The translations under genes and the position numbers were made by a program. From the IMG/VR virus record IMGVR_UViG_3300045988_105524: a DNA stretch of 64,000 bases; one strand, 5' to 3'. Shown here piece by piece: positions 9,755 through 53,749 of this stretch. Every line of letters starts with the position of its first letter. The first letter of the stretch is position 1. Under the pieces are notes generated by a model. The model was not told where the DNA came from, ran no database searches, and saw nothing but the letters and a program-made list of their open reading frames with translations. Source of the stretch: a virus.

Positions 9755-11800
9755 TTACTCAATATCAATTTCGTATTCATTTGCGTGCTCAGTGATATAA
9801 TCTTTTCTAACGCTTGAGTCATTACCCATAAATAACTCCATAAACATAGATGCAAGCTCTGCGTCTTCCATTGTATATCTTATCAATCTTTGTGAATCTT
9901 CATTTAAGAAAATAGCCATGTCTTTTGCTGAAACTTCACCAAGACCTTTATTACGCATTATCTTTTTAACTTCTTTTTCTTTTATTAATTTCTCTTTTTC
10001 TTCTTTATCAAATGCATATACTTTTGTACCGTCTTTATAGATTATTTCAAACAACGGCGTCTGTAATGCATACACGTGTCCTTCTTCTATAATTTCAGGC
10101 ATAAATGTGTAGAATAAAGTTAGTAAAAGTGAACGTATGTGCATCGCATCTTCGTCAGCATCTGTCGCGAAGATAATCTTATCAAACCTTAGCTTACTTA
10201 AATCACACTTTGTTGTTTTTGTATTTACACCAGTGCCTACTAGCTGAATAATATTTTTAATTAGTTGGCTACTCAACGCGTCAGACGCTTTTGCTTTATA
10301 CACAGACTTAATCTTACCTCTGATAGGCATAAGTGCTTGATATTCAGGGTTTCTTGCTTGCTTTAAACTTGACATTGCAGACAAACCTTCTGCAATATAC
10401 AATTCTCTTTTGCTTGAGTCTTTACTTCTACAGTCAACGTAATTTTCTATTCTATTGCGCATACCGTTAATATCAGACTTAAGCTTTTCTTTCGCTACTT
10501 TCTTGCTATCGGCAATTGATTTTCTAGCTTGCATCATTGTAACAGCTCTTGATGTAATCTTTTCTACGATAGAAGAATTTTCTTTTGTAGAAATAAATTT
10601 CATTAGCTCTGCTTTTACTGCGTCATAGATAGCGTTCTTTACTTCTTTACCTGCAAGCTCTTCTTTTGTCTGTCCAGAGAACAGAGGGTCTGGAATAAAT
10701 ACAGATAACTGTAGATTTAAACCTTCTCTATAATCTTCAGCATTGGGCTTATCTTTACCTTTAATCTCTGAGTTAAATGAATCTGCAAGAGCGTCTTCAA
10801 AAGCTTGTAAATGTACACCCTTGAGACGTGTTTTTATTGTATTTACGTATGTATCTACGTTACTCTCATCAGCATAGCAAAATGCAAGTTCTATATCAAC
10901 AGTACGAATTAAATCTTTGTGTTGAATAGCACCATCAGTCATTACTGCTACATTTTTCTCAAGATATTCATTTGAGGTAGTGAACTCTACAACATCTGCG
11001 CCTTCAGGTAGAGCGTCTCTTAAACCATTTTCAGAGTAATACTCGTACTCAGCATTATTCTTAAAATTATCAATTACTTTAATATGAGACTTAGGTAAAA
11101 GATAACTAACACCTTTAAGTCTATCATTTAAATCATCTACATCTACAGGATAAGGGCTTGAGAAAATATTATCATCAAGCTTAATTCTTATCTTAGTACC
11201 TGTAGGAAAATTAGTCTTATAGTACTCTGCTCTATCGTCTTTTCTTGATTTTAGAGTAGCTTTATTCTTTAAAGGCTTAAACTCATCTTCTTCATTAAAA
11301 TAACCTGGTACAAAATCTTTAAATGACATGTAGTAGATTTTATTGTTTCTATAAACTTCAATATCTACTCTTTCAGATAACGCACAAGCTGCGGATGCTC
11401 CTAAACCATTTTGAGATGTACTCTTACCACCAGATGAATTACTACCTAAATTCTCACCAGAACGAAGAGTTCCAAGAGTAATAATAAAACCATTTACTTC
11501 ATTTCCTAACGCGTCAGTAGCAGTGTCAATAGGTAAACCTCTACCGTTATCAAGCACTGTTACAAAACCATCATTATCGAATGTTACTTCAATTCTATCT
11601 GCAAAATTTCTTATGATTTCGCCAACGCTGTTATCAATAATTTCTCTGATTGACACTGTTTTCTGCAGAGAGTATGGATGCTCAGCATCGCCTGTTTCTC
11701 TACCAAATGTTAAGTTAATCTTTTTCTTAAGATGTTCTACATCTGTTAGAGACGTGATGTTTTCAGCAGAATAATGTTCAGTGACTTTCTTTCTTGCCAT
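9755..11800 (-). CDS. type II DNA topoisomerase, GyrB/ParE-like ATPase-Toprim subunit
   Basis: 681 aa; GHKL ATPase (..ILDNGRGLP..) and Toprim (..YIAEG.., ..IIFATDADEDAMHI..) motifs. Confidence 0.8.
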   Translation of the reverse strand: MARKKVTEHYSAENITSLTDVEHLKKKINLTFGRETGDAEHPYSLQKTVSIREIIDNSVGEIIRNFADRIEVTFDNDGFVTVLDNGRGLPIDTATDALGNEVNGFIITLGTLRSGENLGSNSSGGKSTSQNGLGASAACALSERVDIEVYRNNKIYYMSFKDFVPGYFNEEDEFKPLKNKATLKSRKDDRAEYYKTNFPTGTKIRIKLDDNIFSSPYPVDVDDLNDRLKGVSYLLPKSHIKVIDNFKNNAEYEYYSENGLRDALPEGADVVEFTTSNEYLEKNVAVMTDGAIQHKDLIRTVDIELAFCYADESNVDTYVNTIKTRLKGVHLQAFEDALADSFNSEIKGKDKPNAEDYREGLNLQLSVFIPDPLFSGQTKEELAGKEVKNAIYDAVKAELMKFISTKENSSIVEKITSRAVTMMQARKSIADSKKVAKEKLKSDINGMRNRIENYVDCRSKDSSKRELYIAEGLSAMSSLKQARNPEYQALMPIRGKIKSVYKAKASDALSSQLIKNIIQLVGTGVNTKTTKCDLSKLRFDKIIFATDADEDAMHIRSLLLTLFYTFMPEIIEEGHVYALQTPLFEIIYKDGTKVYAFDKEEKEKLIKEKEVKKIMRNKGLGEVSAKDMAIFLNEDSQRLIRYTMEDAELASMFMELFMGNDSSVRKDYITEHANEYEIDIE

Positions 11801-12945
11801 ATTTTATTTACAATCCTTTCGTTTATTAAATGTGATAGCTTGTTCTTAAAGCTATTGTTCTCTATTTCATCTTCCCATAATTCTATTAGAGTTATACCTA
11901 ATTCTTCTGCAGCTTTTTGTTTCTTCTTAAAATCAGCTGGAGTAGATTTAAGCGCACCTCCATAGAGTATCATTGGGAATTCACCTTCGACTTTGCTATG
12001 AGTAGCATTGCCTTGTACTTCAATACCTAATTGTATATCAGGCAATAGTATATCGATTTCTTGCTTATATTTTGTAACAGGCAGAATTTTTCTATTTGTT
12101 TCTACTGCTAGTTCAAAATTATCTATTATATAATTCAAGACTTTTTGCTCTAATCTTGACTTAGTTGTATTCTTAGCAAAATTAGAATAATCAACCCATT
12201 CAGGTAGATTTACTCCAAAATAATCTTTAAAATCTACTGCATTAGGTTTACGCTTTCTCTTATTCTCGAATTCACTAGCCCAATCATTGGCGTTTTTATA
12301 CTCATCTAATAATTTTAAATTTAAAGACGATTTATGTTGATATAATGTTTGACACACTCTATCGCAGAAATGCTTATTCTTAGGGATAGTGCCTTGCAAC
12401 TTTATTTCTTTACTGCAATATTTGCATTCTATTGTATGAAAATCAGTACAAACTTTCTGAGATGAAGAGGTAGGAGTAAATATATTCCCACAGTAAATAC
12501 ATTCTCTAGGTTTATACGTCATATTTTTACGTGTATGAGTATTTCTACAAGAAGAGGAACAGAACTTAGCATCTCCATAAGATTGAAAACGCTGTCCGCA
12601 TTCTATACAATAATGAATCTTTTTTGTTTTAGCGTGCTTATTCATAGCTCTTTGACACTGTTCAGAACAAAAATCACTTGTTTCTGAAGAGGTTTTGCGT
12701 ACTTTACAATTTAAGCAAAAATTATTCCAATTCTTTTCAGCGTTAAAACATTCTATACATAAATCTTGTTTTTCATAATTATAGCGTTTAAACTCTTTGT
12801 TACATCTACTACAGTTAAATACTTTTTCTTTAGTACTTAATTTACCTGCACAACTTCTTGAGCAAGTTTTACTTAAATATGAAGATAGTCCACGTTTTGC
12901 ATTAAACTCTTTATTACAAACTGGGCAGTTGCGTATTACTTCCAT
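11746..12945 (-). CDS. putative homing endonuclease: multi-Zn-ribbon N-terminus plus PD-(D/E)xK-like C-terminal domain
   Basis: Many CxxC pairs; C-terminal ..LPDIQLGIEVQG..; paralogs at 39161 and 54465. Confidence 0.45.
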   Translation of the reverse strand: MEVIRNCPVCNKEFNAKRGLSSYLSKTCSRSCAGKLSTKEKVFNCSRCNKEFKRYNYEKQDLCIECFNAEKNWNNFCLNCKVRKTSSETSDFCSEQCQRAMNKHAKTKKIHYCIECGQRFQSYGDAKFCSSSCRNTHTRKNMTYKPRECIYCGNIFTPTSSSQKVCTDFHTIECKYCSKEIKLQGTIPKNKHFCDRVCQTLYQHKSSLNLKLLDEYKNANDWASEFENKRKRKPNAVDFKDYFGVNLPEWVDYSNFAKNTTKSRLEQKVLNYIIDNFELAVETNRKILPVTKYKQEIDILLPDIQLGIEVQGNATHSKVEGEFPMILYGGALKSTPADFKKKQKAAEELGITLIELWEDEIENNSFKNKLSHLINERIVNKIWQERKSLNIILLKTSRL

Positions 12946-13011: not shown

Positions 13012-13068
13012 AAAGCTCTCAGAAATGATTCTCGTACGTCTGAGATATATCTGAGAGCTATATTTTAC
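13012..13068. repeat. B-repeat copy
   Basis: AAAGCTCTCAGAAATGATTCTCGTACGTCTGAGATATATCTGAGAGCTAT. Confidence 0.8.
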
Positions 13069-13844
13069 TTAACGTTCAATTTAGCGTACAACTCTTCTTC
13101 AGTTATAATCTTTATGCCTAATTGCACTGCTTTCTTATACTTACTACTTGAGCTAGGTTCATTACAAACAAGAAAATCAGCTTTGTTTATAGCAACTTCT
13201 TCAGCATTATGCTCTTCTAAAAATTTAACTATATCTTTTCTTGCTTTGCTCATTTTGCCTGTTAGACAAACTTTTATACCTGCACTCTTTTTATTTAGTT
13301 GTACTTCTTTGACGTAGTTAAGCGCATCATCTAACTCAGAATAATCAAAGTTTAGTAGTGTATTAGAAATACCTGAACTGATACCAGGTATCTGAGAAAA
13401 ATCAAATCTTTCATCGATAGCTTTTCTAAAAGAAGAGTAGTTATTAAAATAATCAACTAGCTTTATCGCTGTTTGCTTAGAGATATTTTCTAAACCGCAA
13501 TTAGCAATTAATTTCCATAGCTCTATTTCTTTAGGGATGTTATTTAGAATCTTATCTACTGAAATATCAGAAAAACCGTCAAGCTGCAACCACTCTTCTC
13601 TATGAGCGTAGAGTTTAAAATAATCTGATAAGCAAGTTAACCAACCTAACTTAATCAACTTCTCAATAGTGGAGTTAGAGATGCCTTCAATATCAAGCGC
13701 TTGTTTACCTGCAAATCTTATTAGCTTATTCTTTATCTTAGCAGGACAGTGTTTATTTTCGCATACAAGCTGCTTTACTCCTGTTACGTCAATCTTTAAT
13801 TCAGAACCGCAGTCAGGGCATATTGTTGGAATTTCAATTCTCAT
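13065..13844 (-). CDS. ligA: NAD-dependent DNA ligase, C-terminal half (Zn-finger, HhH, BRCT)
   Basis: Starts with a Cys4 Zn-finger (ICPDCGSEL...CENKHC), HhH segment, C-terminal BRCT-like ..VCLTGKM..; own RBS GAGGTGA. Confidence 0.75.
   Translation of the reverse strand: MRIEIPTICPDCGSELKIDVTGVKQLVCENKHCPAKIKNKLIRFAGKQALDIEGISNSTIEKLIKLGWLTCLSDYFKLYAHREEWLQLDGFSDISVDKILNNIPKEIELWKLIANCGLENISKQTAIKLVDYFNNYSSFRKAIDERFDFSQIPGISSGISNTLLNFDYSELDDALNYVKEVQLNKKSAGIKVCLTGKMSKARKDIVKFLEEHNAEEVAINKADFLVCNEPSSSSKYKKAVQLGIKIITEEELYAKLNVK
13285..13310. repeat. A-repeat copy 6, inside the ligA C-half coding sequence
   Basis: Exact 26-nt match; encodes KEVQLNKKS in frame. Confidence 0.9.
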
Positions 13845-13853
13845 ATTATCACC

Positions 13854-14576
13854 TCAAATTTCTACAGAATTATCATAATATTTCCAATGCAAATTATTTG
13901 TTTTCTTACGCTTACCTGAACAGCATTCGCTTATTTTTGAATTGCGACTATTAGTTTCTTTTGAGGCTTGCGTTATAGAGTCGTATACTATTCCAGTCTC
14001 TACGCATACAACTTTACGCCGTTTTTTGGCGGCTGCAGCTTCAATTCTTTTTTTATGGATAATCTTCATTTCTTCTGGGTGTTCTTTTTGCCATTTTAAG
14101 CAGTCTTTAACTTTTTCTCTCGACCATTCTATATCATTTTTCATTTTAATCACCATAGCTTTGTTAGCATTCGGAGAAATGATTTTTATTCCACATATTC
14201 GTTTATTATACTCAGGTTTTAGACTCCTGATATAATTTTCTTCTATATTTTTAGCTTCGCTAATAGTACAAGTAGCTCTAGATAATTCTGTATGCGTAAA
14301 ACACCCGTTTCCATATTTCTCAATGTCTTGATTAAACTCTTTATTAAACTTATACCCCTTGCCATTTCCCCATCTAGCTTTAATAGATTTTTGTGTTGTA
14401 GCTCCAACATATCGTTTATTGTTTACTGTGCAAGTGTGCATATAAAATATAACATTATATTTATTAGTGTCTTCATCAGATTTTAATATAGGTTTTTCAT
14501 TGTGCATGTCCTTTAAATGCCGATTTAACGAAGAGCGACAAGAAAAACACTTATTGCATATTAAACATCTTTCCAT
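13854..14576 (-). CDS. GIY-YIG homing endonuclease inserted within the DNA ligase gene
   Basis: N-terminal C2H2-like finger, ..YVGATTQ..R..GNG.. GIY-YIG-like core, basic C-terminus; ATG overlaps the ligase N-half stop (TAATG). Confidence 0.6.
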   Translation of the reverse strand: MERCLICNKCFSCRSSLNRHLKDMHNEKPILKSDEDTNKYNVIFYMHTCTVNNKRYVGATTQKSIKARWGNGKGYKFNKEFNQDIEKYGNGCFTHTELSRATCTISEAKNIEENYIRSLKPEYNKRICGIKIISPNANKAMVIKMKNDIEWSREKVKDCLKWQKEHPEEMKIIHKKRIEAAAAKKRRKVVCVETGIVYDSITQASKETNSRNSKISECCSGKRKKTNNLHWKYYDNSVEI

Positions 14577-15607
14577 TAGTTATTCCTTTCTGCTTTTACT
14601 ACTTGCGGTATTATACAATTTGATTTTCTTATCCAAATCTTTTGCCCAACGTACGGTTCGCCAAGAATTTTTTCTACTATATCAAGATTATGCATACTAG
14701 CTCTCTGAACATTTGTACCATCAATAACAACAGGCTTAAACTTCGCTACAGGAGTAAGATTACCTGTCTTACCTTGTGTCCATATAATGTCTAGCAACTC
14801 TGTTTCATATAGCTCATCATAAAATTTAAAAGCTAAAGCAGCGTTAGGACTATGCTCTGTTTTACCTAAGCTTTCATATTCTTCTATATTGTTAATCTTG
14901 TAAACTAGACCGTCAATAGGTAAATCAACACATTGTTCTCTTAGTGCCTCTGTATCAAAATCAAATCTATAAGGCACTACTTCAAAATCTCTACCTAAAT
15001 CATAAAGCTTTTCTGATAGTAGAGAATAAGACTTATCTGAAGAGATTAAATCAAAAGCAATAAATGATAAATTTCTCTGCTCTGCAACTTTAAGTCTCAT
15101 ACTACCCGCAGCATAATTTCTTACATTGGAAGAACCTACGTAATCAGAATATTTACAGATAACTTCACCTTCGACTGTAATATCATAAGGTAGAGACTTA
15201 GGAATATTGTCAATCATCATAGCGTTATGCGTAACATCTTCACCTATTCTGCCATTTCCTCTAGTCTCTGCTCTGAATAGCTTACCATTTTTATAAGTTA
15301 ATCTACAAGTTAAACCATCAAGCTTAGCCATAGCGATAATATCTTTATTCTTAAAAAATTTCTTTACTTCTTCAATATCTTTTGTTTTATTTAAAGATAG
15401 CATAGGAGTAGAATGCTCTACTTTATTCAATGTATTAGAGTGAATATTCTGAGTAGGAGAATCTTTATCAGGAGTATGCGTCTTTTCATATTCTACTACT
15501 TGAAAATATAAATCATCCCATTCTTTATCTGAAAGTGCAGGTGCTCCAGAATCATATAACTCTGTGTGCTTATTTAATTCTTTTATTGCTTCTTTATAAT
15601 TGAACAT
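14576..15607 (-). CDS. ligA: NAD-dependent DNA ligase, N-terminal half (Ia, adenylation KxDG, OB fold)
   Basis: ..AMAKLDGLT.. KxDG motif, ..ALAFKF.. motif V, complete OB-fold-like C-terminus; ends exactly at the OB/Zn boundary. Confidence 0.8.
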   Translation of the reverse strand: MFNYKEAIKELNKHTELYDSGAPALSDKEWDDLYFQVVEYEKTHTPDKDSPTQNIHSNTLNKVEHSTPMLSLNKTKDIEEVKKFFKNKDIIAMAKLDGLTCRLTYKNGKLFRAETRGNGRIGEDVTHNAMMIDNIPKSLPYDITVEGEVICKYSDYVGSSNVRNYAAGSMRLKVAEQRNLSFIAFDLISSDKSYSLLSEKLYDLGRDFEVVPYRFDFDTEALREQCVDLPIDGLVYKINNIEEYESLGKTEHSPNAALAFKFYDELYETELLDIIWTQGKTGNLTPVAKFKPVVIDGTNVQRASMHNLDIVEKILGEPYVGQKIWIRKSNCIIPQVVKAERNN

Positions 15608-15618
15608 ACTATACCTCT

Positions 15619-16188
15619 TTACAAATATCTCTGAGTATTACTTACGTAAACAAAACAACCTGTTAACGGTTTACAATTTGTCAATAGCTTAACGCATTTA
15701 AAATACTTTCGTACGTGCTCTATCTCTTCTTTAGGAATGTAAAGTAATGCGTCATTAAAATCTTTTGATAAGCATTCATACTGATGATTTCTCTGTTCTC
15801 TGTTTGCGTAGCAATTCCAACCTAAAGATAAAATAGCCACAGCGAGTGAATCTTTATCAACATTTACTGAATTTACACCATAATGTGCTTGTTGATAAGA
15901 GGTGAATTTTACAAACAAATCTTGCATATAACGACTTGAATCATTAATTGCATTATACTCAATGTCAAATTTATTAAATAGATTACCTTGAACTGAACAA
16001 GCAGTGCCGATGTTAGTAACGCTTTTAATGTCATTCTTCAAACAAAAGTCTATGACAAATTCATAATTACATAGACCTTCAAGAAGATTAAGATAACAAT
16101 ATTCAAGCTGAGTAAAGTAATCTTCATCGAATTTATCTTCAACAGCGCGTAAATTATTTAAGTTTTCGTGTAGTATATTTTCTAACAT
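15619..16188 (-). CDS. hypothetical protein (189 aa)
   Basis: ORF track; AAGGAG RBS and consensus promoter upstream. Confidence 0.5.
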   Translation of the reverse strand: MLENILHENLNNLRAVEDKFDEDYFTQLEYCYLNLLEGLCNYEFVIDFCLKNDIKSVTNIGTACSVQGNLFNKFDIEYNAINDSSRYMQDLFVKFTSYQQAHYGVNSVNVDKDSLAVAILSLGWNCYANREQRNHQYECLSKDFNDALLYIPKEEIEHVRKYFKCVKLLTNCKPLTGCFVYVSNTQRYL

Positions 16189-16243: not shown

Positions 16244-16261
16244 TAAAAAAAAATGCTACAC

Positions 16262-16518
16262 ATGAGATGGCCAGTCTCACCGTAACATTCCTTTGTTTCT
16301 AGCATTCCGCCGAACAGGTTAATTTATCTTGTTTCCCTAACGCCTAGGTACTGCTTTGCTTTTGATAGAGGAGGGAGTCGAACCCTCAAGTGGTAATTTT
16401 GCAACCGTACGGCTTGCGGGCCGTACACCTTTTCTCTCCGCAATGGCAAGCTCCATCTACTTGCAAAGTTTACTTGAGAGTCTCACTCAAGAACGTGGCG
16501 GGCACTGTACCGCGTGTA
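16262..16518 (-). ncRNA. structured ~255-nt ncRNA with tRNA-like T-arm (GAGGG-TTCGACT-CCCTC); candidate Y-RNA-like / tRNA-like RNA
   Basis: Non-coding, GC-enriched; perfect 7-bp hairpin GTACGGC/GCCGTAC; T-arm consensus; own TTTACA-N17-TATAAT promoter; ends in hairpin + T9. Confidence 0.55.
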
Positions 16519-16523
16519 ATTGT

Positions 16524-16554
16524 ATTATATCAAAAGACTCATAATTTGTAAACA
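16524..16554 (-). promoter_or_regulatory. sigma70-like promoter TTTACA-N17-TATAAT driving the ncRNA
   Basis: Perfect -35/-10 with 17-nt spacer on minus strand. Confidence 0.65.
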
Positions 16555-16565
16555 CTTTTTATAAA

Positions 16566-18755
16566 TTAAATGCAAACATAATATGTATTTACTTTTATGC
16601 CATTAAGCTTAGCAAATTCTAGAATTGTTTTCATCTCTTCAGAGTCAGATTTTAATCTTCTGTTATACATACCCGATGCTTGTAGAATCTCGTTGTCTCT
16701 AACTTCAATAGTAATCAAAGGTGTATCTAAATCGTCATTAGCTCTTAAGAAGAAAATAAATGTTTCTTTTCTAAGTACTCTGTTAATATATGATGATACA
16801 CAGTGTTTCAAAGCTTCACCTTCTTGAACAATGGCTATAAGAGTAGGAGGTGCAATAATACTAAAGTTCTCGCCTACATAACTTTTGTATGTATATGTTT
16901 TTAGTACTTTTGCATACTCTTCTTCTGCTAATTCTTGTTTAATTGCGTTGTATGTTTCTGCTAGTGTATCGTGGAATGCTTTGATACTATTTTCTTCAAT
17001 ACTATGCTTGATGTCATTTGTAAAATCTTTTATCTTTCTATCTTTGTATACAGAGAAATACATATTTAGCATATCACATAAATACCAGTCTTTAACATCA
17101 TTTTCGTATACGCTGTAGTAAACATCTCTTGTATCATTATTACGGAAAAGAATAAGATTGAACAATTCAATGTATCTCTTTAATTCACTTTCAACTGACT
17201 TGAATGTTGTGTTAAAGCTGAGCAATTCAATTATTCTATTATCAACAATTTTAATTTGCTTTATAAACTCGTCTAGAGCTTTCTCGCGATTTTCAATGTA
17301 GTCTAACTGCGCGTTAATATCTCCAAAAGCACGCGTTAGTAAGAAATAAAATTCCAAAAATAACTCACCGACAATCTTAAGCTCTTCTGTAGAAAATCTC
17401 GAAATAATATTGAAAACGCCTGTGCCTGTGTCGCACATATGCATTAGACGAATTCCTGTTACTGCTTTAAGAGAGTCTATTTCAAAAAGCATATTTACTC
17501 TTGGCACTGTATCAAAGAATGATGATTTTAACTCTCTAACAAGTGAATTATTTTTGTATATGTCGAATATCTTTATTAGATAATTTGCTCTATCTACATC
17601 AGACCAATCATTGAGTCGCTTTAGAGCTGGAATCTTACCGTAAACTGAGAATAAACCCTCAAGCTTATCACTGTACAGCAAATCTATTAAATCATTAACA
17701 ATAATCTGTCTAGGTCTACGAATATTATAATCATAGTAACTTGTATTTCTCTGATAAAACGACTTAAAATCATTGAGATTACGCAGCAAGTACTCAAAAT
17801 TCTTTATTCTATTAGAGAAACCGCTGCAGTCAGGAATATCTTCAAAGTGAGTAGGTATACAAGCTTGCATACTCTTCATACCAGCTTTTGTAGTTTTAAC
17901 GCCATTTACGAAAAACTTAAAATAACCAGTTTTAGGAATAATTATCTTTATACGGTTTTCTCTCTTTGTATCTACAAGATGTAGTGTAGCCTCTTCAGAC
18001 TTTTCATTATAAGTAACAGTATTATACTCATACTCTACTGAGTTATCAATTTGTATATTAGCATACTTATATATAAAGCTGAAAATATTCTTTTCACGAT
18101 TTGAGTCAGAGATACTGTTAAATAATTCAATCTGCTCTTTACTCATATCCAGCAGCTTATACATTTCATCATTATTAATGAATTTATCATACGTTTGCGT
18201 ACTTAACTGTACTGCAGGCTTGACTACATCAATAAAAGGTCTCTCTATAAGCATAGAATTCTTTGCGTCTAAATCAGTAATTATGATAGCATCAAATTCT
18301 TCTTCGCCTTTAGTATGATATGCTGTAAGATTATTTGAAACGTAGCAATTAGGCAAAATAGTATAAACATAATTATCTATTTTTACAGAATAATACTGCA
18401 CTTTCTCAACAGCGTCACTGATTAAATAAAACTTATCATTAAATCTTACACGAATACTGTCATAATATTCACGATGAATATATAAATCGTACATTAAAGC
18501 AACTTTATCTTCTTTTAAAAGATTATCTTTAATGTAAGACTTAGCAACCTCTTGTATTGCGTCACTTAAGAAACTTACTGGATAAGTTAACTTAGTCGTG
18601 TATTCTTCATTTGTAGAGTGATTTATAATTTTAACTAATTCTCTATTTTTAACATACTGAGGTTCGAATACGTCTACTTTTTCGTATAGCTTATTCAAAA
18701 GCTCTTCAGCATTCTGAGACTTTAGCCAAGTTTTAGTGCCTATCTGTACTTTCAT
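16566..18755 (-). CDS. large hypothetical protein (729 aa), possibly with PcfJ-like C-terminal domain
   Basis: ORF track; C-terminal ..LKHCVSSY..FIFFLR.. reminiscent of PcfJ-like proteins (weak). Confidence 0.4.
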   Translation of the reverse strand: MKVQIGTKTWLKSQNAEELLNKLYEKVDVFEPQYVKNRELVKIINHSTNEEYTTKLTYPVSFLSDAIQEVAKSYIKDNLLKEDKVALMYDLYIHREYYDSIRVRFNDKFYLISDAVEKVQYYSVKIDNYVYTILPNCYVSNNLTAYHTKGEEEFDAIIITDLDAKNSMLIERPFIDVVKPAVQLSTQTYDKFINNDEMYKLLDMSKEQIELFNSISDSNREKNIFSFIYKYANIQIDNSVEYEYNTVTYNEKSEEATLHLVDTKRENRIKIIIPKTGYFKFFVNGVKTTKAGMKSMQACIPTHFEDIPDCSGFSNRIKNFEYLLRNLNDFKSFYQRNTSYYDYNIRRPRQIIVNDLIDLLYSDKLEGLFSVYGKIPALKRLNDWSDVDRANYLIKIFDIYKNNSLVRELKSSFFDTVPRVNMLFEIDSLKAVTGIRLMHMCDTGTGVFNIISRFSTEELKIVGELFLEFYFLLTRAFGDINAQLDYIENREKALDEFIKQIKIVDNRIIELLSFNTTFKSVESELKRYIELFNLILFRNNDTRDVYYSVYENDVKDWYLCDMLNMYFSVYKDRKIKDFTNDIKHSIEENSIKAFHDTLAETYNAIKQELAEEEYAKVLKTYTYKSYVGENFSIIAPPTLIAIVQEGEALKHCVSSYINRVLRKETFIFFLRANDDLDTPLITIEVRDNEILQASGMYNRRLKSDSEEMKTILEFAKLNGIKVNTYYVCI

Positions 18756-19306
18756 ATATCTCTCCTCTTATACAATTCTGCTTTAATATCATTTATTATA
18801 TCAGGCAAAGCTACTGGTGTAAGATTATGTGCGTCTAAGCCTATGTGATAAACATACGGATAATCATTATAAAACTTCACATCCTGATGAATATGACCGA
18901 ATAGACATATTGCGCTATGCTTTAGTTTAAAACGCGAAATATCGTCTCGTATTATTGAAGGATAATGACTAAGGTAAAATTGCTGTTTATCAATCTTTAT
19001 TAAATGAGCATATCCTAGCACTGTAGTGTTTGGCGCTTTAGCGTATATCTTTGCTCTATCTGAAGTGTCGTGATTACCTAGCACAATAAACTTCTGTCCT
19101 TTAAGCTTATTGAATAATTCAATACTCTCTTTATTATCGCCAAGCATAACATCGCCAAGAATATAGACTGTATCAGAATCGTTCACTGTCTTATTCCAGT
19201 TTTTGATTATAGCTTCATTCATCTCACCGATAGACTTAAAACCTCTTGCGCCGTATATAAAGTCTTTATCGTGATTAAAATGTAAATCGCTTGTAAAGTA
19301 AATCAA
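18752..19306 (-). CDS. calcineurin-like metallophosphoesterase (YfcE/MJ0936-like)
   Basis: DLHFNH, GDVMLGD, GNHD, GHIH motifs; TTG start with GGAG RBS. Confidence 0.7.
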   Translation of the reverse strand: MIYFTSDLHFNHDKDFIYGARGFKSIGEMNEAIIKNWNKTVNDSDTVYILGDVMLGDNKESIELFNKLKGQKFIVLGNHDTSDRAKIYAKAPNTTVLGYAHLIKIDKQQFYLSHYPSIIRDDISRFKLKHSAICLFGHIHQDVKFYNDYPYVYHIGLDAHNLTPVALPDIINDIKAELYKRRDI

Positions 19307-32280: not shown

Positions 32281-32395
32281 ATAGCTCTGAGATATACTCC
32301 AGACGTACCAGAATCGTCTCTCGTAAACTTTTATGCTCTTTTAATAGTAATTACCGCCTACGATAAAAACAGCAGTCAGAAGTTAAATCTCGATT
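32281..32395. repeat. composite B+C intergenic repeat
   Basis: ATAGCTCTGAGATATACTCCAGACGTACCAGAATCGTCTCTCGTAAAC ... GATAAAAACAGCAGTCAGAAGTTAAATCT. Confidence 0.8.
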
Positions 32396-33066
32396 AATCT
32401 CAAGTACAAGCATTCTGCATTATACAACGAGCTAATTCTATTCAAATGATAATGAGCAAAGTACCATCTTCTGTAGCTTAAGTCACAGAGAATACTATCA
32501 AAGAAATTTGTTAGTTTATTCTTATCGTACATATAAGCTGAAATGTCATTCAATATATAAGATGAAGTACAGTGAGAAATAACATAATCAAAAGTAAAGT
32601 TATTCTCATCTAAAGTCTTAAACGCTCTTTCATACTCTTCGTTACTAGGCAATTCTTCAGACCACCAGTCAACATTAGCAATTCTTCTATGCTTATCAAT
32701 AGAATCAGCACCGCCCATTGCAAAGAATGTCTTATTTTCAATAGTGTACTTATACCCTCTCATTAAATGATAGATTTTATCTTTTAGTACTTCGTGAGTA
32801 GGGTTTCCGTACATCTCAACAATAGGCATTTTATTTAATCTATCGAAATTTTCGTGATTGCCATCTATGAATAGAATATGCTTGTAAGAAACAGAATCAG
32901 CAAAGTGATTAAGGAATTCATTGTCGTCTTTTTCATTATGCCACACGCCACCAAAATCACCAAGAATGATTAAAATGTCTTTATCTGTAACTCTTTTTTC
33001 TTTTGATAATTCTACTAATGGCTCTAAATCAATTGTTCTATGTAAGTCTCCGTATAGATAAATACT
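32383..33066 (-). CDS. PPP-family-like metallophosphoesterase (Ser/Thr phosphatase-like)
   Basis: ..YGDLH.., ..LGDFGG.., ..DGNHE.. motifs; track ORF 32383..33156 trimmed to Met preceding the motifs. Confidence 0.6.
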   Translation of the reverse strand, partial: SIYLYGDLHRTIDLEPLVELSKEKRVTDKDILIILGDFGGVWHNEKDDNEFLNHFADSVSYKHILFIDGNHENFDRLNKMPIVEMYGNPTHEVLKDKIYHLMRGYKYTIENKTFFAMGGADSIDKHRRIANVDWWSEELPSNEEYERAFKTLDENNFTFDYVISHCTSSYILNDISAYMYDKNKLTNFFDSILCDLSYRRWYFAHYHLNRISSLYNAECLYLRLIEI

Positions 33067-33070
33067 CATA

Positions 33071-33439
33071 CTACTTACACATCTCTTCAATCTCTTCAGT
33101 AATGTCGTCAGGGTGTAAGAATGCAAATAGTGGTAAATCATCGAAGCATTCTTCACTTACTTCAAAATAAACCCAGTCAGCATTTTCAAATGAGAATAAA
33201 CCACCTTTGTAACCTTCATACTTAGAGCCGTCAGTTAGCTTATCAATAATTACTAGTAAATCAGCAAGAGTCATATATTTATCACTATCTTTAAAGAAAA
33301 TAGCAGGCTGAAAATAATCACCTCTCCAGCTACCAAACCCTCTGTAATAATTATCATCAAGCTTAGTTGTATCTACATAATTTATTCTTACGTCAGGATA
33401 TTCTCTGCATAATCTCTCTAGAGTTGCAATGTTCATCAT
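33071..33439 (-). CDS. hypothetical protein (122 aa)
   Basis: ORF track. Confidence 0.4.
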   Translation of the reverse strand: MMNIATLERLCREYPDVRINYVDTTKLDDNYYRGFGSWRGDYFQPAIFFKDSDKYMTLADLLVIIDKLTDGSKYEGYKGGLFSFENADWVYFEVSEECFDDLPLFAFLHPDDITEEIEEMCK

Positions 33440-34242: not shown

Positions 34243-35181
34243 CTATTGAGCAAGCTTTTCTTTTACTAGCTTTACTATAAGACTTGGCATTGCTTTATTA
34301 AGAATTCTCTGATTAAAATATGAATCAGGGTTATCTTTAATATAATCATTCTTTACATCTTCTAAGTATGCAGGAATGATAGTGCCAAGGTTTCTTACTG
34401 ATAATTCGACATCTCCTTTAGAGAGCAGATTATCTAGTCTCTGCATAGTGAAATATCTCTCAATGTTATCTTTAAAGTTAATCTCATCACCAGTTAGTAC
34501 AGGCGCTTCTTTCTTTCTGCTCTTAATCTCAGCAAACTGCTCTGTCTTATGCTTTACTCCTAGATAATTGCACACTACTCCATTATCAAAAGCTAGTATT
34601 TGCCCATCAAAAGGTTTATATACTAGACCCTCAATAGGACCACCAAGCCTTGATGTCTCAGGCAGTTCAGTTGTAAGCCACTCTCTAAGAGGTTTAACTT
34701 CTGTAAAGAATGGTACGGTTAATTGACCAAAAATGTGAAGCAGCTCTTCAGCAGTTAGAGTATAAGCTCTGTTATCTTCAAATACGAAAACATCAAACAC
34801 TCTGAATTCTTTTATACCTGCTTTATTTTCAGCGTATTCCATATTCTGAATACCACTACCATATAACTCACCAAAGATGATTACTTTAGTTATGTCGTTT
34901 TCTTTCTTGCTTAGATTTACTGAACCTTCAAGAATTGATTTTGCAATACTCTCAATGTCTTTAAGGTTGTTAGTAGTTGCGAGATAACTACCAAGAGCTT
35001 TATCATCAAGCGTTACTTCTCTATTTCTACTGAAATATCTAGTAGAGTCTTTAGTAAACTCTATCGACATATTACTACCGTGAATCTTCTCAGTAGCATA
35101 AAACTCTTCGTCAAGAACAGCCATGAGTTTTCTCGAACTTGTAATATTACAATGATTTTCGAGTGATGGATATTTTAACAT
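34243..35181 (-). CDS. Rnl2-family ATP-dependent RNA ligase
   Basis: N-terminus MLKYPSLENHCN...EKIHGSNMSI matches T4 Rnl2 (KKYSSLENHYN...EKIHGTNFSL); ..FGELYGSGIQ.. matches motif III region. Confidence 0.75.
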   Translation of the reverse strand: MLKYPSLENHCNITSSRKLMAVLDEEFYATEKIHGSNMSIEFTKDSTRYFSRNREVTLDDKALGSYLATTNNLKDIESIAKSILEGSVNLSKKENDITKVIIFGELYGSGIQNMEYAENKAGIKEFRVFDVFVFEDNRAYTLTAEELLHIFGQLTVPFFTEVKPLREWLTTELPETSRLGGPIEGLVYKPFDGQILAFDNGVVCNYLGVKHKTEQFAEIKSRKKEAPVLTGDEINFKDNIERYFTMQRLDNLLSKGDVELSVRNLGTIIPAYLEDVKNDYIKDNPDSYFNQRILNKAMPSLIVKLVKEKLAQ

Positions 35182-41087: not shown

Positions 41088-41165
41088 TGCACCCGCTGAA
41101 GACGGGACTTGAACCCGCAATCTTCTGCTATTGCAGACGTTTAACCAATTAAACTGTAATCAGCG
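41088..41165 (-). pseudogene. aberrant tRNA-like element (intact T-arm and acceptor, 4-nt or 8-nt anticodon loop)
   Basis: T-arm GCGGG-TTCAAGT-CCCGT present but the anticodon region folds as TCTGC-AATA-GCAGA. Confidence 0.35.
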
Positions 41166-43871: not shown

Positions 43872-45065
43872 TTAATTAGCTTTAAAATTATAAATTGGCT
43901 TAATTATACGCTCAATATCTACTGTATCAGCGATTGCAGCCTTAATCTCATCAAGAGGCTTATATGCCATAGGAGATTCATCAAGAGTGCTTCTACCTAC
44001 ACAAGTTGTATATATGCCTTTCATTGATTCTTCAAACTCTTCTACAGTTAGAGTAGCTTTTGCAGCACTTCTAGAAAGAACTCTACCTGCACCGTGAGGA
44101 GCAGAACAGTTCCAATCAGCGTTACCTTTACCGATACCAATAATTGAACCATCTTTCATAGAGATAGGAATGATTACTCTCTCACCCTTTTGAGCAGAGA
44201 TTGCACCTTTACGAATAATCTTATTTTCTACGTCAATGTAATTATGAATAGAGCAGAAATGCTCTAGTATATCCCAATTCATATATGAGATAATCTCATC
44301 AGCCATAGCTTGTCTTGATAAAGAAGCGTACTCAGTAGCTATCTTCATATCGTGTAGATAATCTTCTAAGTCTGTACCCATAACACATCTTAAATCTTTA
44401 GGTATTGTTGGGTATTCTTCTTTTATTCTCTTTATTTCGTCTTGTATTTCATTGTATTTACTAGCTTTTTTCAAATCTTCAATAACTGTATTTATATCTA
44501 CATTATTTTCATTCTTTTCAGCAATGTCTTGATAGTGCTTACAAATCTCTATGCCTAGATGTCTTGAACCTGAGTGTATGACTAAGTAGTTATACCCTTC
44601 TTCATCAATATTTATTTCTATAAAATGATTACCGCCGCCTAAAGAACCTAGAGATAACATAGCGCCATTATAGTCAATAGTATCAAAACACTTTAACTCT
44701 TTTAGTCTTGCGTCATTTGCAAATCTGTGAGCTGTATTTCTCTTACTGAAACCATAAGGAACTTTAGTATTTGATTGTAGCATTTCGTCTAGCTTAGCGA
44801 AATCTATTTTGTCTGTCTTAAACTTATAAACCTCTACACCGCAACCAATATCAACACCTACAAGATTAGGACAAGCTCTGTCAGTAATATGCATAGTAGT
44901 ACCCACAGTACAACCTTTACCTGCGTGAACATCGGGCATAAAGCGAGCATTACTATCTTTAGCAAAAGGCTGATTTAGAAGATTAACTATCTGTGTCTGC
45001 GCTTCTACTTCGCAGTTGTCTGTAAATATTTTTGCTGTACCATACTTTCCGTTTAATTCGAGCAT
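43872..45065 (-). CDS. rtcB: RtcB-family RNA 3'-phosphate ligase
   Basis: ..DVHAGKGC.., ..GGGNHFIE.., ..APHGAGR.. conserved RtcB metal-binding/GMP-histidine motifs; 397 aa. Confidence 0.8.
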   Translation of the reverse strand: MLELNGKYGTAKIFTDNCEVEAQTQIVNLLNQPFAKDSNARFMPDVHAGKGCTVGTTMHITDRACPNLVGVDIGCGVEVYKFKTDKIDFAKLDEMLQSNTKVPYGFSKRNTAHRFANDARLKELKCFDTIDYNGAMLSLGSLGGGNHFIEINIDEEGYNYLVIHSGSRHLGIEICKHYQDIAEKNENNVDINTVIEDLKKASKYNEIQDEIKRIKEEYPTIPKDLRCVMGTDLEDYLHDMKIATEYASLSRQAMADEIISYMNWDILEHFCSIHNYIDVENKIIRKGAISAQKGERVIIPISMKDGSIIGIGKGNADWNCSAPHGAGRVLSRSAAKATLTVEEFEESMKGIYTTCVGRSTLDESPMAYKPLDEIKAAIADTVDIERIIKPIYNFKAN

Positions 45066-53187: not shown

Positions 53188-53263
53188 TGGTACGCCCAGC
53201 GGGACTTGAACCCGCAAAAAGTAGTTTCTAAGACTACCGTGTATGCCATTCCACCACAGGCGT
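53188..53263 (-). tRNA. type-I (76-nt, 5-nt variable loop) tRNA with anticodon TAG (reads CUA Leu codons)
   Basis: AC stem GTAGT/ACTAC loop CTTAGAA; T-arm GCGGG-TTCAAGT-CCCGC; A73. Confidence 0.55.
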
Positions 53264-53675: not shown

Positions 53676-53749
53676 TGGTGGACTGAGAGAGAATCGAACT
53701 CTCATTATACGGATGCAAGCCGTACGTTCTCCCGTTGAACTATCAGCCC
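53676..53749 (-). tRNA. tRNA-Ala (TGC)
   Basis: AC stem TACGG/CCGTA loop CTTGCAT; G3-T70 wobble in acceptor as expected for Ala. Confidence 0.7.

What the first reader, a model, noticed from the sequence alone, without database searches (positions are those of the whole stretch)
16262..16554. Promoter-driven ~255-nt structured ncRNA with a tRNA-like T-arm, in a genome that also encodes RtcB
The region lacks any ORF and is GC-enriched relative to its surroundings. A perfect TTTACA-N17-TATAAT promoter at 16524..16554 places the TSS at ~16518. The RNA ends in a hairpin plus T9 at ~16262. Inside are a canonical T-arm (GAGGG-TTCGACT-CCCTC), a perfect 7-bp hairpin (GTACGGC-CCGCAA-GCCGTAC) and a CTTGAG/CTCAAG hairpin, but it cannot be folded into a cloverleaf. 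tRNA-mimicking Y RNAs encoded next to rtcB/rsr are known in bacteria and some phages. Here rtcB (43872..45065) is in the same genome window, but no Ro60/TROVE ORF is evident. It could instead be an unusual tRNA-like regulatory RNA or a processed tRNA precursor decoy.
Basis: partly seen in the sequence, partly recalled or inferred. Interest (0 to 1): 0.65.

Follow-up and report, generated by a model that had tools for sequence, protein, structure and literature searches.

The report
Phage RNA gene with anticodon-less tRNA mimic
An uncultured large phage of Gram-positive bacteria carries a small, separately transcribed RNA gene whose core folds like a transfer RNA but has no usable anticodon. 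It matches no described RNA family, and some close relatives of the phage have lost or disrupted it.

Summary
The unit lies on the minus strand. It has a promoter (TTTACA-N17-TGaTATAAT, 16552-16524), a 273-nt non-coding transcript (16517-16245) and a strong terminator. The T9 run is at 16253-16245, not about 16262.

It has a 7-bp acceptor stem, a canonical T arm and a long variable arm. In place of an anticodon arm it has a 7-bp hairpin with a 6-nt loop, and no CCA is encoded. A leader-trailer helix extends the acceptor stem, and that helix shows a compensatory base change.

Rfam gives only a sub-threshold tRNA-Sec hit (29 bits). There is no YrlA, Y RNA or tmRNA hit, no GNCGAA motif and no TROVE protein, so Y-RNA membership is not supported.

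The RNA occurs only in one narrow clade of roughly 174-kb phages assembled from metagenomes. There it is 93-99% conserved, against 70-80% for the adjacent spacer. It is also dispensable. It is missing in four contigs, an IS605-type element sits in its promoter in one, and one copy lacks the T arm.

My best reading is an accessory, early-expressed, non-decoding tRNA mimic. Its partner and processing are unknown. I class it as a new variant of a known kind, of moderate interest.

The parts
16524..16552 (-). Promoter: -35 TTTACA (16552-16547), 17-nt spacer, extended -10 TGaTATAAT (16532-16524)
   Evidence: 11/12 match with TG; same class occurs 14 times on the minus strand and 0 times on the plus strand. 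The hexamers are largely conserved in relatives; some have TATAGT or TATATT at -10.
16245..16517 (-). Inferred primary transcript, 273 nt. The start is inferred from the -10 box and the end from the T9 run.
   Evidence: 93-99% identical among relatives, against 70-80% for the adjacent spacer in comparisons with the window's copy.
16473..16491 (-). Leader hairpin H2: CUUGAG-UGAGACU-CUCAAG (RNA positions 27-45)
   Evidence: Invariant in all copies, so there is no covariation information.
16497..16501 (-). P1 5' strand CCGCC (positions 17-21), candidate long-range partner of GGCGG. A local hairpin GCGG/CCGC (5-8/17-20) is an alternative.
   Evidence: RNAalifold. The isolated leader instead prefers the local hairpin. 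Invariant.
16463..16468 (-). H3 5' strand CUUUGC (positions 50-55). This leader strand belongs to the helix that extends the acceptor stem.
   Evidence: Pair 54-160 is G-C, G.U or A-U, and pair 55-159 is C-G or U.G, across copies.
16364..16457 (-). tRNA-like domain, 94 nt. Acceptor stem 16457-16451 with 16370-16364. D region 16450-16427. Anticodon-like hairpin 16426-16407 (7 bp, loop CCGCAA). Variable arm 16406-16392. T arm 16387-16371.
   Evidence: Rfam tRNA-Sec 29.1 bits, E = 0.0011. MFE gives the same acceptor, anticodon-like, variable and T arms but a different D-arm pairing, z = -1.9. RNAalifold agrees. ARAGORN finds nothing at default settings.
16363..16363 (-). Discriminator-position A, followed by AAA. 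No CCA is encoded.
   Evidence: By contrast, 25 of the 26 ARAGORN-called tRNAs of the window encode CCA.
16354..16359 (-). H3 3' strand GCAAAG (positions 159-164)
16336..16348 (-). Trailer hairpin H4: CCUA-GGCGU-UAGG (positions 170-182)
   Evidence: Pair 172-180 is U-A, U.G or C-G, and pair 173-179 is A-U or G.U, across copies.
16307..16335 (-). A-rich single-stranded linker (positions 183-206) plus P1 3' strand GGCGG (207-211)
   Evidence: Only one position (197) varies in all RNA-bearing copies. The remnant in the RNA-less alleles differs at 5 of 33 positions, including GGCGG to GACGG.
16245..16294 (-). Intrinsic terminator: imperfect 20-bp hairpin plus U9
   Evidence: dG -17.6 kcal/mol, z = -3.3, 0 of 200 shuffles fold as well. 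It is kept even in the alleles that lack the rest of the RNA.

Best explanation
This is a stand-alone, early-type phage gene for a 273-nt non-coding RNA. Its core is a tRNA mimic. It has a 7-bp acceptor stem stacked on a canonical 5-bp T arm, a long variable arm and a D region containing GG. It has a closed 7-bp/6-nt hairpin where the anticodon arm should be, and no encoded CCA, so it cannot decode.

A 6-bp leader-trailer helix prolongs the acceptor stem. That helix sits in a conserved platform: two hairpins, an A-rich single strand and possibly a closing CCGCC/GGCGG helix.

Inferred mechanism: the host sigma-A polymerase makes the RNA right after infection. The tRNA-shaped module then engages proteins that recognise the tRNA elbow and acceptor end. 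Candidates are RNase P, RNase Z, the CCA-adding enzyme, T-loop modifiers, or a host factor that targets tRNAs. The RNA would act as a non-decoding decoy or scaffold, either intact or after being nicked at the tRNA ends with the pieces held together by the leader-trailer helix.

It is an accessory function, not an essential one.
- Shown: gene boundaries, fold, conservation, absence from known families, dispensability.
- Inferred: expression, partner proteins, processing.
For: - Promoter of the phage's own recurrent, strand-specific class and a strong terminator.
- No coding signal. The 39-aa ATG ORF at 16456-16337 has no Shine-Dalgarno sequence, and its stop codon TAG becomes TGG in L004, L010 and L222.
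- The cloverleaf is recovered by three independent methods.
- The T loop UUCGACU with the G53-C61 closing pair is canonical (direct reading).
- All 322 pair cells in 7 distinct copies form standard pairs, against 39-53% when the partners are slid by 1-3 columns. Two pairs show compensatory changes, in H3 and H4.
- The RNA is 93-99% identical where the adjacent non-coding spacer is 70-80% (comparisons with the window's copy). Leader and trailer are as conserved as the tRNA-like core.
- 25 of the 26 ARAGORN-called tRNAs of the phage encode CCA; this RNA does not.
- The phage carries RtcB and an Rnl2-like ligase, which points to conflict over tRNA integrity.
- Loss and disruption alleles mark it as accessory.
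Against: - There are no expression data. The transcription start and the 3' end are inferred.
- All copies are at least 93% identical, so covariation is thin. 23 of 500 shuffles reach the observed score, and only 2 pairs show double changes.
- The whole-transcript MFE is not unusual (z = -0.75).
- The D arm is ambiguous. The canonical UGCC/GGUG pairing competes with the MFE pairing CUUGCC/GGAGAG, and the L008/L009 change GGUG to GACG breaks one canonical pair.
- P1 competes with a local hairpin.
- Position 8 is C, not U.
- Four contigs lack the RNA altogether, so any function is conditional.
- No partner protein is identifiable. Both neighbours (a PcfJ-like protein and a 189-aa ORF) are of unknown function, and one lineage keeps the RNA without PcfJ.
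Confidence: 0.5

Rival explanations
1. tRNA-punctuated precursor. The tRNA-like domain is mainly a built-in RNase P/RNase Z cleavage signal, following the logic of MALAT1-mascRNA or plant mitochondrial t-elements. Cleavage would release a roughly 60-nt leader RNA and a roughly 118-nt trailer sRNA with its own terminator. Those would be the active products, for example as base-pairing regulators. The excised tRNA-like piece would be a by-product or a second product.
For: - A perfect 7/5 acceptor/T-arm stack, a canonical T loop and single-stranded junctions of 5 nt (5' side) and 4 nt (3' side) are what RNase P and RNase Z need (established knowledge).
- M. smegmatis YrlA, which has a 7-bp acceptor stem, is cut by RNase P and receives CCA (PMC4201824).
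- A leader-trailer helix also promotes MALAT1 3'-end processing (PMC8457004, title and abstract only).
- Leader and trailer are as conserved as the core.
- The trailer has a hairpin, an A-rich single strand and a terminator, like a typical sRNA.
Against: - No convincing target complementarity in the 64-kb window. The longest antisense matches are 10-12 nt, about the number expected by chance.
- Host targets cannot be tested.
- The tRNA-like core is under the same constraint in parts that a mere cleavage signal would not need, such as the variable arm and the anticodon-like hairpin.
Confidence: 0.2
2. A bacterial-type Y RNA (like Yrn1 or YrlA) that tethers a Ro60/Rsr protein encoded elsewhere in the roughly 174-kb genome or by the host.
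For: - tRNA mimicry is the hallmark of bacterial Y RNAs.
- D. radiodurans Yrn1 is modelled with an 'anticodon arm' whose loop has 6 nt, and with the opposite orientation to YrlA (PMC4201824). That resembles the topology seen here.
- rtcB is in the genome.
Against: - No hit to Rfam YrlA (RF02553) or Y_RNA at E <= 10.
- No GNCGAAN0-1G or GGUCCGA-like motif.
- No TROVE ORF in the window, whereas published YrlAs lie within 4 kb of rsr on the same strand.
- The size is 273 nt, against 80-130 nt.
Confidence: 0.05
3. A genuine but aberrant tRNA. After processing and CCA addition it would be aminoacylated by a synthetase that ignores the anticodon (LeuRS, SerRS or AlaRS type). It would then serve a non-ribosomal purpose, or decode abnormally through an 8-nt loop (C-CCGCAA-G) as a frameshift suppressor.
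For: - Class II shape with A at the discriminator position.
- LeuRS and SerRS do not read the anticodon (established knowledge).
- An invariant G4.U69 wobble pair in the acceptor stem.
Against: - The loop has 6 or 8 nt, never 7, and no U33.
- CCA is not encoded, although 25 of the 26 ARAGORN-called tRNAs of the phage have it.
- The G.U pair is at 4:69, not 3:70.
- The conserved structured leader and trailer and the acceptor-extending helix are unlike tRNA precursors.
- ARAGORN and the Rfam thresholds are not met.
Confidence: 0.07
4. A decaying tRNA pseudogene, or a selfish 'moron' cassette with no function for the phage.
For: - Repeated loss or disruption: missing in L224-L227, an IS605-type insertion in the promoter in L012, and a 28-nt T-arm deletion in L008.
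- A second anticodon-less tRNA-like gene at 41094-41164 suggests tRNA genes decay in this genome.
Against: - Much stronger conservation than the neighbouring spacer.
- Every substitution at a paired position keeps the pair.
- It has its own strong promoter and terminator.
- The non-tRNA flanks are conserved.
- After loss of the cassette the retained linker diverges, which implies the linker was constrained while the RNA was present.
Confidence: 0.08
5. A cis-acting element: a 3' UTR and terminator region of the PcfJ-like gene, a leader for the 189-aa ORF, or a replication-origin primer transcript.
For: - It lies between two genes in a cluster of replication genes.
- The terminator is shared with the PcfJ-like gene in the RNA-less alleles.
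Against: - It has its own promoter downstream of the PcfJ stop codon.
- The 189-aa ORF has its own promoter after the terminator.
- The RNA persists where the PcfJ-like gene is gone (L222), and both flanking genes persist where the RNA is gone.
Confidence: 0.03

Closest known systems
Bacterial Y RNAs (D. radiodurans Yrn1; YrlA, Rfam RF02553)
   Same: A non-coding RNA whose conserved core mimics tRNA (T arm, D-like region). Yrn1 is modelled with a 6-nt 'anticodon loop'. Some are encoded by phages. They work as scaffolds rather than decoders (PMC4201824).
   Different: No Ro60/Rsr neighbour, no GNCGAA motif and no covariance-model hit. The primary transcript is about twice as long. In YrlA the RNA ends emerge from the anticodon-stem side and the acceptor stem is closed by a loop. 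Here the anticodon-like arm is closed and the acceptor stem continues into a leader-trailer helix.
mascRNA / menRNA (tRNA-like RNAs cut out of MALAT1 and MEN-beta)
   Same: A tRNA-like cloverleaf with a reduced, non-decoding anticodon arm, embedded in a longer non-coding transcript. Leader-trailer pairing occurs next to the acceptor stem (PMC8457004).
   Different: Those are eukaryotic nuclear RNAs. There is no sequence or model similarity: the Rfam mascRNA-menRNA model gives no hit at the locus. Processing of the phage RNA has not been shown.
tmRNA
   Same: A tRNA-like acceptor/T-arm module fused to extra structured RNA. It occurs in some phages (my own knowledge).
   Different: tmRNA has no anticodon arm at all and carries G3.U70, CCA, a tag ORF and pseudoknots. 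ARAGORN's tmRNA search finds nothing even at lowered thresholds, and the Rfam scan returns no tmRNA hit. The only in-frame 'tag' candidate (GCA AAG ... UAA) accumulates non-synonymous changes that are RNA-compensatory.
tRNA-Sec and tRNAs with unusual cloverleaf shapes (PMC5389517)
   Same: This is the best-scoring Rfam model. It shares a long variable arm, a long (6-7 bp) anticodon stem and a possible 6-bp D stem with a small loop.
   Different: The score is 29.1 bits against a gathering threshold of 47. The acceptor/T arrangement is 7/5, not 8/5 or 9/4. There is no UCA anticodon and the loop has 6 nt.
Small stable RNAs of unknown function in the phage T4 tRNA gene cluster (recalled from memory, not checked)
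   Same: Phage-encoded small stable RNAs associated with tRNA genes and the tRNA processing machinery.
   Different: They lie inside the tRNA cluster, whereas this RNA has its own promoter and terminator about 24 kb from the nearest tRNA cluster. No sequence comparison was made.

Membership tests
Canonical decoding tRNA (Rfam RF00005) | 7-bp acceptor stem directly abutting a 5-bp T stem with a GTPsiC-type 7-nt T loop | tested here: met
   GAUGGAG/CUCUAUC and GAGGG-UUCGACU-CCCUC.
Canonical decoding tRNA (Rfam RF00005) | 5-bp anticodon stem with a 7-nt loop, U33 and a readable anticodon | tested here: not met
   7-bp stem with the 6-nt loop CCGCAA, or 6 bp with an 8-nt loop. There is no U at the position equivalent to 33.
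Canonical decoding tRNA (Rfam RF00005) | Detected by tRNA finders or at the curated threshold | tested here: not met
   ARAGORN at default settings finds nothing. No Rfam gathering-level hit.
Canonical decoding tRNA (Rfam RF00005) | 3' CCA (encoded, as in this phage's own tRNAs, or added later) | tested here: not met
   The discriminator A is followed by AAA. 25 of the 26 ARAGORN-called tRNAs of the window encode CCA. Addition after transcription cannot be tested here.
YrlA / bacterial Y RNA | Encoded within about 4 kb of, and on the same strand as, a Ro60/Rsr (TROVE) gene | tested here: not met
   The neighbours are a PcfJ-like gene, a 189-aa ORF, a ligase and a metallophosphoesterase. No ORF of 400 aa or more in the window has a TROVE domain. 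The remaining roughly 110 kb of the genome was not seen.
YrlA / bacterial Y RNA | GNCGAAN0-1G (Ro-binding) motif near the 5' end | tested here: not met
   The string CGAA does not occur in the 273-nt transcript (sequence printed). Motif definition from PMC4201824.
YrlA / bacterial Y RNA | Match to the YrlA covariance model (gathering score 69 bits) | tested here: not met
   No hit at E <= 10 in the local scan.
YrlA / bacterial Y RNA | tRNA-like T and D stem-loops | tested here: inconclusive
   The T arm is canonical. The D arm is ambiguous between two pairings.
tmRNA | tRNA-like domain without an anticodon arm, G3.U70, CCA end, tag ORF, pseudoknots | tested here: not met
   ARAGORN -m at 70% threshold finds nothing. 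No tmRNA family appears among the Rfam hits. Pair 3:70 is U-A or U.G. The candidate reading frame is not conserved as a protein.
tRNA-Sec (RF01852) | 13-bp acceptor/T branch (8/5 or 9/4), UCA anticodon, score of at least 47 bits | tested here: not met
   29.1 bits, 7/5 branch, loop CCGCAA.
mascRNA-type excised tRNA-like RNA | Cloverleaf with a reduced anticodon arm embedded in a longer ncRNA, with leader-trailer pairing | tested here: met
   This is an architectural resemblance only.
mascRNA-type excised tRNA-like RNA | Excision by RNase P and RNase Z, followed by CCA addition | not testable with these tools
   Needs RNA-end mapping or in vitro cleavage assays.

The most novel reading that the evidence does not exclude
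This would be a new class of phage accessory RNA. It would be a non-cleavable, anticodon-less tRNA decoy displayed on a structured platform and made immediately after infection. It would sequester or mis-direct a host protein that recognises the tRNA body. Candidates include a defence nuclease or nucleotidyltransferase that targets the acceptor end or the elbow, or the tRNA-processing machinery itself. That would make it an RNA-based counter-defence, gained and lost according to the host's defence repertoire.
Probability: 0.2. Interest if true: 0.8.

Novelty: new variant of a known kind. Interest (0 to 1): 0.55.

Why it matters
Phages are known to carry tRNAs and tRNA-repair enzymes to survive host attacks on translation. 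An RNA that looks like a tRNA but cannot decode would add another way of using tRNA shape.

This one has its own early promoter and a conserved platform, and it is gained or lost between near-identical phages. That pattern suggests a decoy or scaffold rather than an adaptor.

Natural alleles with and without the RNA exist in otherwise near-identical phages, so the question could be tested directly once a host is found. The fold also gives a concrete seed for covariance-model searches of large phage collections for other non-decoding tRNA mimics.

Tried and rejected
- **Known phages.** blastn in distant mode of the locus against 50,697 phage records gave no match.
- **Pattern scans.** I ran exact and structured patterns against IMG/VR, JGI metagenomes and GTDB genomes. 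Only the same IMG/VR contig was a true hit. One search also picked up ordinary tRNAs and coding sequence, and the hits were unrelated GC-rich (52-68%) sequence.
- **Covariance-model screen.** Model R1 rejected the 74 GTDB loci and 100 of the 119 new IMG/VR loci.
- **Paralogues.** R1 found none in the window. It hit only type II tRNAs, at 17-18 bits.
- **Synteny in a cultured relative.** Nothing lies next to the PcfJ-like gene of Bacillus phage pW2.
- **tmRNA.** Rejected, and the 'tag' frame is not conserved.
- **Small protein.** The 39-aa ATG ORF inside the tRNA-like domain has no Shine-Dalgarno sequence, and its stop codon is lost in three relatives.
- **Antisense targets.** Only 10-12-nt matches in the window, at the chance level.
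- **Descent from one of the phage's own tRNAs.** Only generic T-arm similarity. The best score was 31 against a null maximum of 27. The anticodon-like stem equals that of tRNA-Ala(UGC), but that 12-mer is within chance expectation.
- **Neighbouring proteins.** The 189-aa ORF has no Pfam or PHROG hit, and PcfJ-like proteins have no known function.
- **Literature.** Three searches found no description of this RNA. The catalogue of 10,006 candidate viral RNAs (PMC10690425) has no supplementary files held here, so I could not check whether it lists this motif.
Full report
**What is at the locus**

All genes of the window lie on the minus strand. Between a 729-aa PcfJ-like gene (16566-18755) and a 189-aa ORF (15619-16188) there is a 377-nt gap with no meaningful ORF. 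Its GC content is 47-49%, against about 30% around it.

Reading the minus strand, the gap starts with TTTACA-N17-TGaTATAAT (16552-16524). This is the best promoter match in the local scan. The same motif, TTTACA-N17-TA[TA]AAT, mostly with the TG extension, occurs 14 times in the window. All 14 copies are on the minus strand. They include sites ahead of tRNA clusters (55914, 49498, 41490, 40740) and ahead of rtcB (45127). So this is one of the phage's standard promoters of host sigma-A type.

Transcription should start near 16517. It should end at an imperfect 20-bp hairpin (16294-16254) followed by U9 (16253-16245). The hairpin has dG -17.6 kcal/mol, z = -3.3, and no shuffle out of 200 folds as well. 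The next promoter, for the 189-aa ORF, follows at 16241-16213. The unit is therefore a self-contained 273-nt transcript.

**The tRNA-like core**

Rfam at curated thresholds finds 27 tRNAs in the window (ARAGORN finds 26 of them) and nothing at this locus. A permissive local scan gives one notable hit: tRNA-Sec, 29.1 bits (threshold 47), E = 0.0011, end to end over 16457-16364. The alignment is a full cloverleaf:
- **Acceptor stem:** GAUGGAG/CUCUAUC (7 bp, one G.U pair), directly abutting the T stem.
- **T arm:** GAGGG-UUCGACU-CCCUC, with the canonical G53-C61 closing pair.
- **Variable arm:** long (GGU...ACC).
- **D region:** contains GG.
- **Anticodon position:** the 7-bp hairpin GUACGGC-CCGCAA-GCCGUAC.

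Thermodynamic folding of the 94-nt domain alone returns the same acceptor, anticodon-like, variable and T arms as the MFE and centroid structure, with a different D-arm pairing (z = -1.9). With six more nucleotides on each side it adds a further helix (z = -2.6). RNAalifold on the relatives gives the cloverleaf again.

It is not a working tRNA, however. The loop has 6 nt, or 8 if the last pair opens, and never 7. There is no U33. ARAGORN rejects it except at an 80% threshold, and then in a worse register. The discriminator A is followed by AAA, whereas 25 of the 26 ARAGORN-called tRNAs of the phage encode CCA.

The D arm is ambiguous. The canonical pairing UGCC/GGUG competes with the MFE alternative CUUGCC/GGAGAG, which resembles tRNA-Sec.

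**Relatives and conservation**

No cultured phage has similar DNA. The nearest cultured phages, Geobacillus E3 and the Bacillus Sophritavirus group, share only about 37% identity in the topoisomerase II subunit A-like protein.

Protein-guided retrieval through the two neighbouring genes gave about 17 contigs from metagenome assemblies, including two of about 174 kb. Seven distinct copies of the RNA are 93-99% identical. The non-coding spacer just downstream is only 70-80% identical in comparisons with the window's copy, and the 189-aa ORF is 86% identical at the DNA level. Leader, core and trailer are equally conserved.

Every substitution at a predicted paired position keeps the pair. All 322 pair cells form standard pairs, against 39-53% when the partners are slid by 1-3 columns. 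Specific changes:
- In the helix formed by leader CUUUGC (16468-16463) and trailer GCAAAG (16359-16354), one pair runs G-C, G.U, A-U across copies and its neighbour runs C-G, U.G.
- In the trailer hairpin (16348-16336), one pair runs U-A, U.G, C-G and another runs A-U, G.U.
- Acceptor pair 3:70 runs U-A, U.G.

The statistics are weak because the sequences are so close. 23 of 500 shuffles reach the observed covariation score, and only two pairs show double changes. I treat the leader-trailer helix and the trailer hairpin as supported, and the rest as compatible but untested. The long-range CCGCC/GGCGG helix proposed by RNAalifold is invariant and competes with a local 5' hairpin.

**Searches for the family elsewhere**

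Structured DNA patterns that fix the loops and the T loop but leave the stems free found only the same phage clade. I ran them on IMG/VR, JGI metagenomes and one genome per GTDB species. Other hits were ordinary tRNAs or GC-rich coding DNA. A covariance model of the core rejected most of them, and I rejected the rest by inspection.

There is no paralogue in the window and nothing at the syntenic site of Bacillus phage pW2. Within what I could search, the RNA is restricted to this clade. These were pattern scans, not exhaustive model searches.

**The gene is dispensable**

This is the most informative comparative result.
- **Missing.** In four contigs from four samples (L224-L227), the PcfJ stop codon is followed directly by CAAGAUAAAU...terminator. 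The promoter and RNA positions 1-186 are absent and only the last 87 nt or so remain. The flanking spacer is almost identical to the window's. These contigs represent two different alleles of the 189-aa ORF. In the remnant, the linker that is almost invariant in all RNA-bearing copies differs at 5 of 33 positions, including GGCGG to GACGG. That fits release from constraint once the rest of the RNA is gone, although an insertion history cannot be excluded.
- **IS605-type insertion.** In L012 a tnpB-like ORF of an IS605-type element (MKHNKAFKFRLYPTPEQ...) sits between the -35 and -10 boxes.
- **Internal deletion.** In L008 a 28-nt deletion removes the T arm and the 3' acceptor strand. A contig from another sample (L009) breaks exactly at that point. 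It may therefore be a segregating variant or an assembly effect.
- **RNA kept without PcfJ.** L222 and L223 keep the RNA although the PcfJ-like gene is almost entirely gone.

The RNA is thus an accessory gene, independent of PcfJ, that has been lost or disrupted more than once.

**Comparison with known kinds**

As defined in PMC4201824, they are 80-130 nt, lie within about 4 kb of a Ro60/Rsr gene on the same strand, carry a GNCGAAN0-1G motif near the 5' end, and match the YrlA model. All four were tested and none is met (the motif by reading the sequence).

The topology also differs from YrlA, where the acceptor-like stem is closed and the ends leave through the anticodon stem. It is closer to the model drawn for Deinococcus Yrn1, which even has a 6-nt 'anticodon loop'. 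So the RNA may work like a Y RNA, as a tRNA-shaped scaffold. It is not a member of that family on present evidence. A Ro60 gene in the unseen 110 kb remains possible.

*tmRNA.* Excluded.

*tRNA-Sec.* Excluded by score, 7/5 geometry and loop.

*MALAT1-mascRNA.* This is the closest architectural analogy: a non-decoding cloverleaf inside a longer non-coding RNA, with leader-trailer pairing at the foot of the acceptor stem (PMC8457004).

**How it most likely works**

*Shown:*
- an autonomous promoter-terminator unit
- a non-decoding tRNA-shaped core on an extended acceptor helix
- purifying selection on the whole RNA while it is present
- accessory status

*Inferred:* the host polymerase transcribes it early. 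The perfect acceptor/T-arm stack and T loop are the known determinants for RNase P, RNase Z, the CCA-adding enzyme and T-loop modifiers. The module will therefore be bound, and possibly cut at G16457 and after A16363, by that machinery. M. smegmatis YrlA behaves this way.

The leader and trailer are as conserved as the core and pair with each other. I therefore favour a composite RNA, intact or nicked but held together, that presents a tRNA body without a cleavable or decodable anticodon. It would act as a decoy or tether for a tRNA-recognising protein (confidence about 0.5 for this general reading).

The phage also carries 26 tRNAs, RtcB and an Rnl2-type ligase. Together with the presence/absence pattern, this makes a role in conflict over tRNAs plausible but unproven.

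The main rival (0.2) is that the tRNA shape is only a processing signal that liberates leader and trailer sRNAs. Smaller rivals:
- a chargeable non-decoding tRNA
- a Ro60-dependent Y RNA
- a decaying pseudogene
- a cis element

**Verdict**

This is a real, well-delimited candidate ncRNA gene and a new variant within the known theme of tRNA mimicry. It is not a member of any curated family.

Interest is moderate (0.55). The architecture and the natural knock-out alleles make it attractive. Against that, it is confined to one uncultured clade, the covariation evidence is thin, and neither expression nor a partner is known.

Noticed in passing
window 41094-41164 (-): A second tRNA-like gene without an anticodon, inside a tRNA cluster. 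The anticodon stem UCUGC/GCAGA is closed by a 4-nt loop (AAUA). The acceptor stem has only 5 good pairs and no CCA is encoded. It scores 34.4 bits on Rfam tRNA and ARAGORN misses it. The same anticodon-arm/T-arm string occurs in the IMG/VR relative.
   Followed up: partly
window 13065-15607 (-): The NAD-dependent DNA ligase gene is split in three. The adenylation and OB domains lie at 14576-15607. A GIY-YIG/NUMOD homing-endonuclease-like ORF lies at 13854-14576. The zinc-finger and BRCT part lies at 13065-13844. Relatives have one intact 603-620-aa ligase. Whether an intron is involved was not examined.
   Followed up: partly
L012 5090-5351; L010 379-1795; window 59194-60051 (-): IS200/IS605-type elements are active in this phage clade. 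A tnpB-like ORF sits inside the RNA promoter in L012, a Y1 transposase plus OrfB lies upstream in L010, and there is an OrfB_IS605 ORF in the window.
   Followed up: partly
window 53188-53263 (-): The tRNA with anticodon UAG (Leu) has only a 5-nt variable loop, which is a class I shape. Bacterial-type tRNA-Leu normally has a long variable arm.
   Followed up: no
window 53676-53749 (-) versus 16407-16426 (-): The anticodon stem of the phage tRNA-Ala(UGC), GUACGG/CCGUA, is the same as the stem of the anticodon-like hairpin of the ncRNA. The loops align as CUUGCAU versus CCCGCAAG, and the ncRNA loop contains GCA, which is complementary to the Ala anticodon. A 12-nt match is within chance expectation (about 2 expected).
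   Followed up: partly
window 34243-35181 (-) and 43872-45065 (-): The phage has two RNA-repair ligases: an Rnl2-like ligase with the T4 Rnl2 C-terminal domain, and RtcB. It also has several calcineurin-like phosphoesterases (18752-19306, 32383-33156, 56255-57238).
   Followed up: no
window 11746-12945 (-): A 399-aa HNH/homing-endonuclease-like ORF lies between the gyrB-like gene and the ligase C-terminal fragment. In relatives L222 and L224 the gyrB-like gene carries intein domains.
   Followed up: no
L008 about 5405; L009 end (2825): A 28-nt deletion removes the T arm of the ncRNA in L008. An independent contig from another sample ends exactly at the deletion point. Both carry GGUG to GACG in the D region. 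This is either a segregating variant or an assembly-graph effect.
   Followed up: partly
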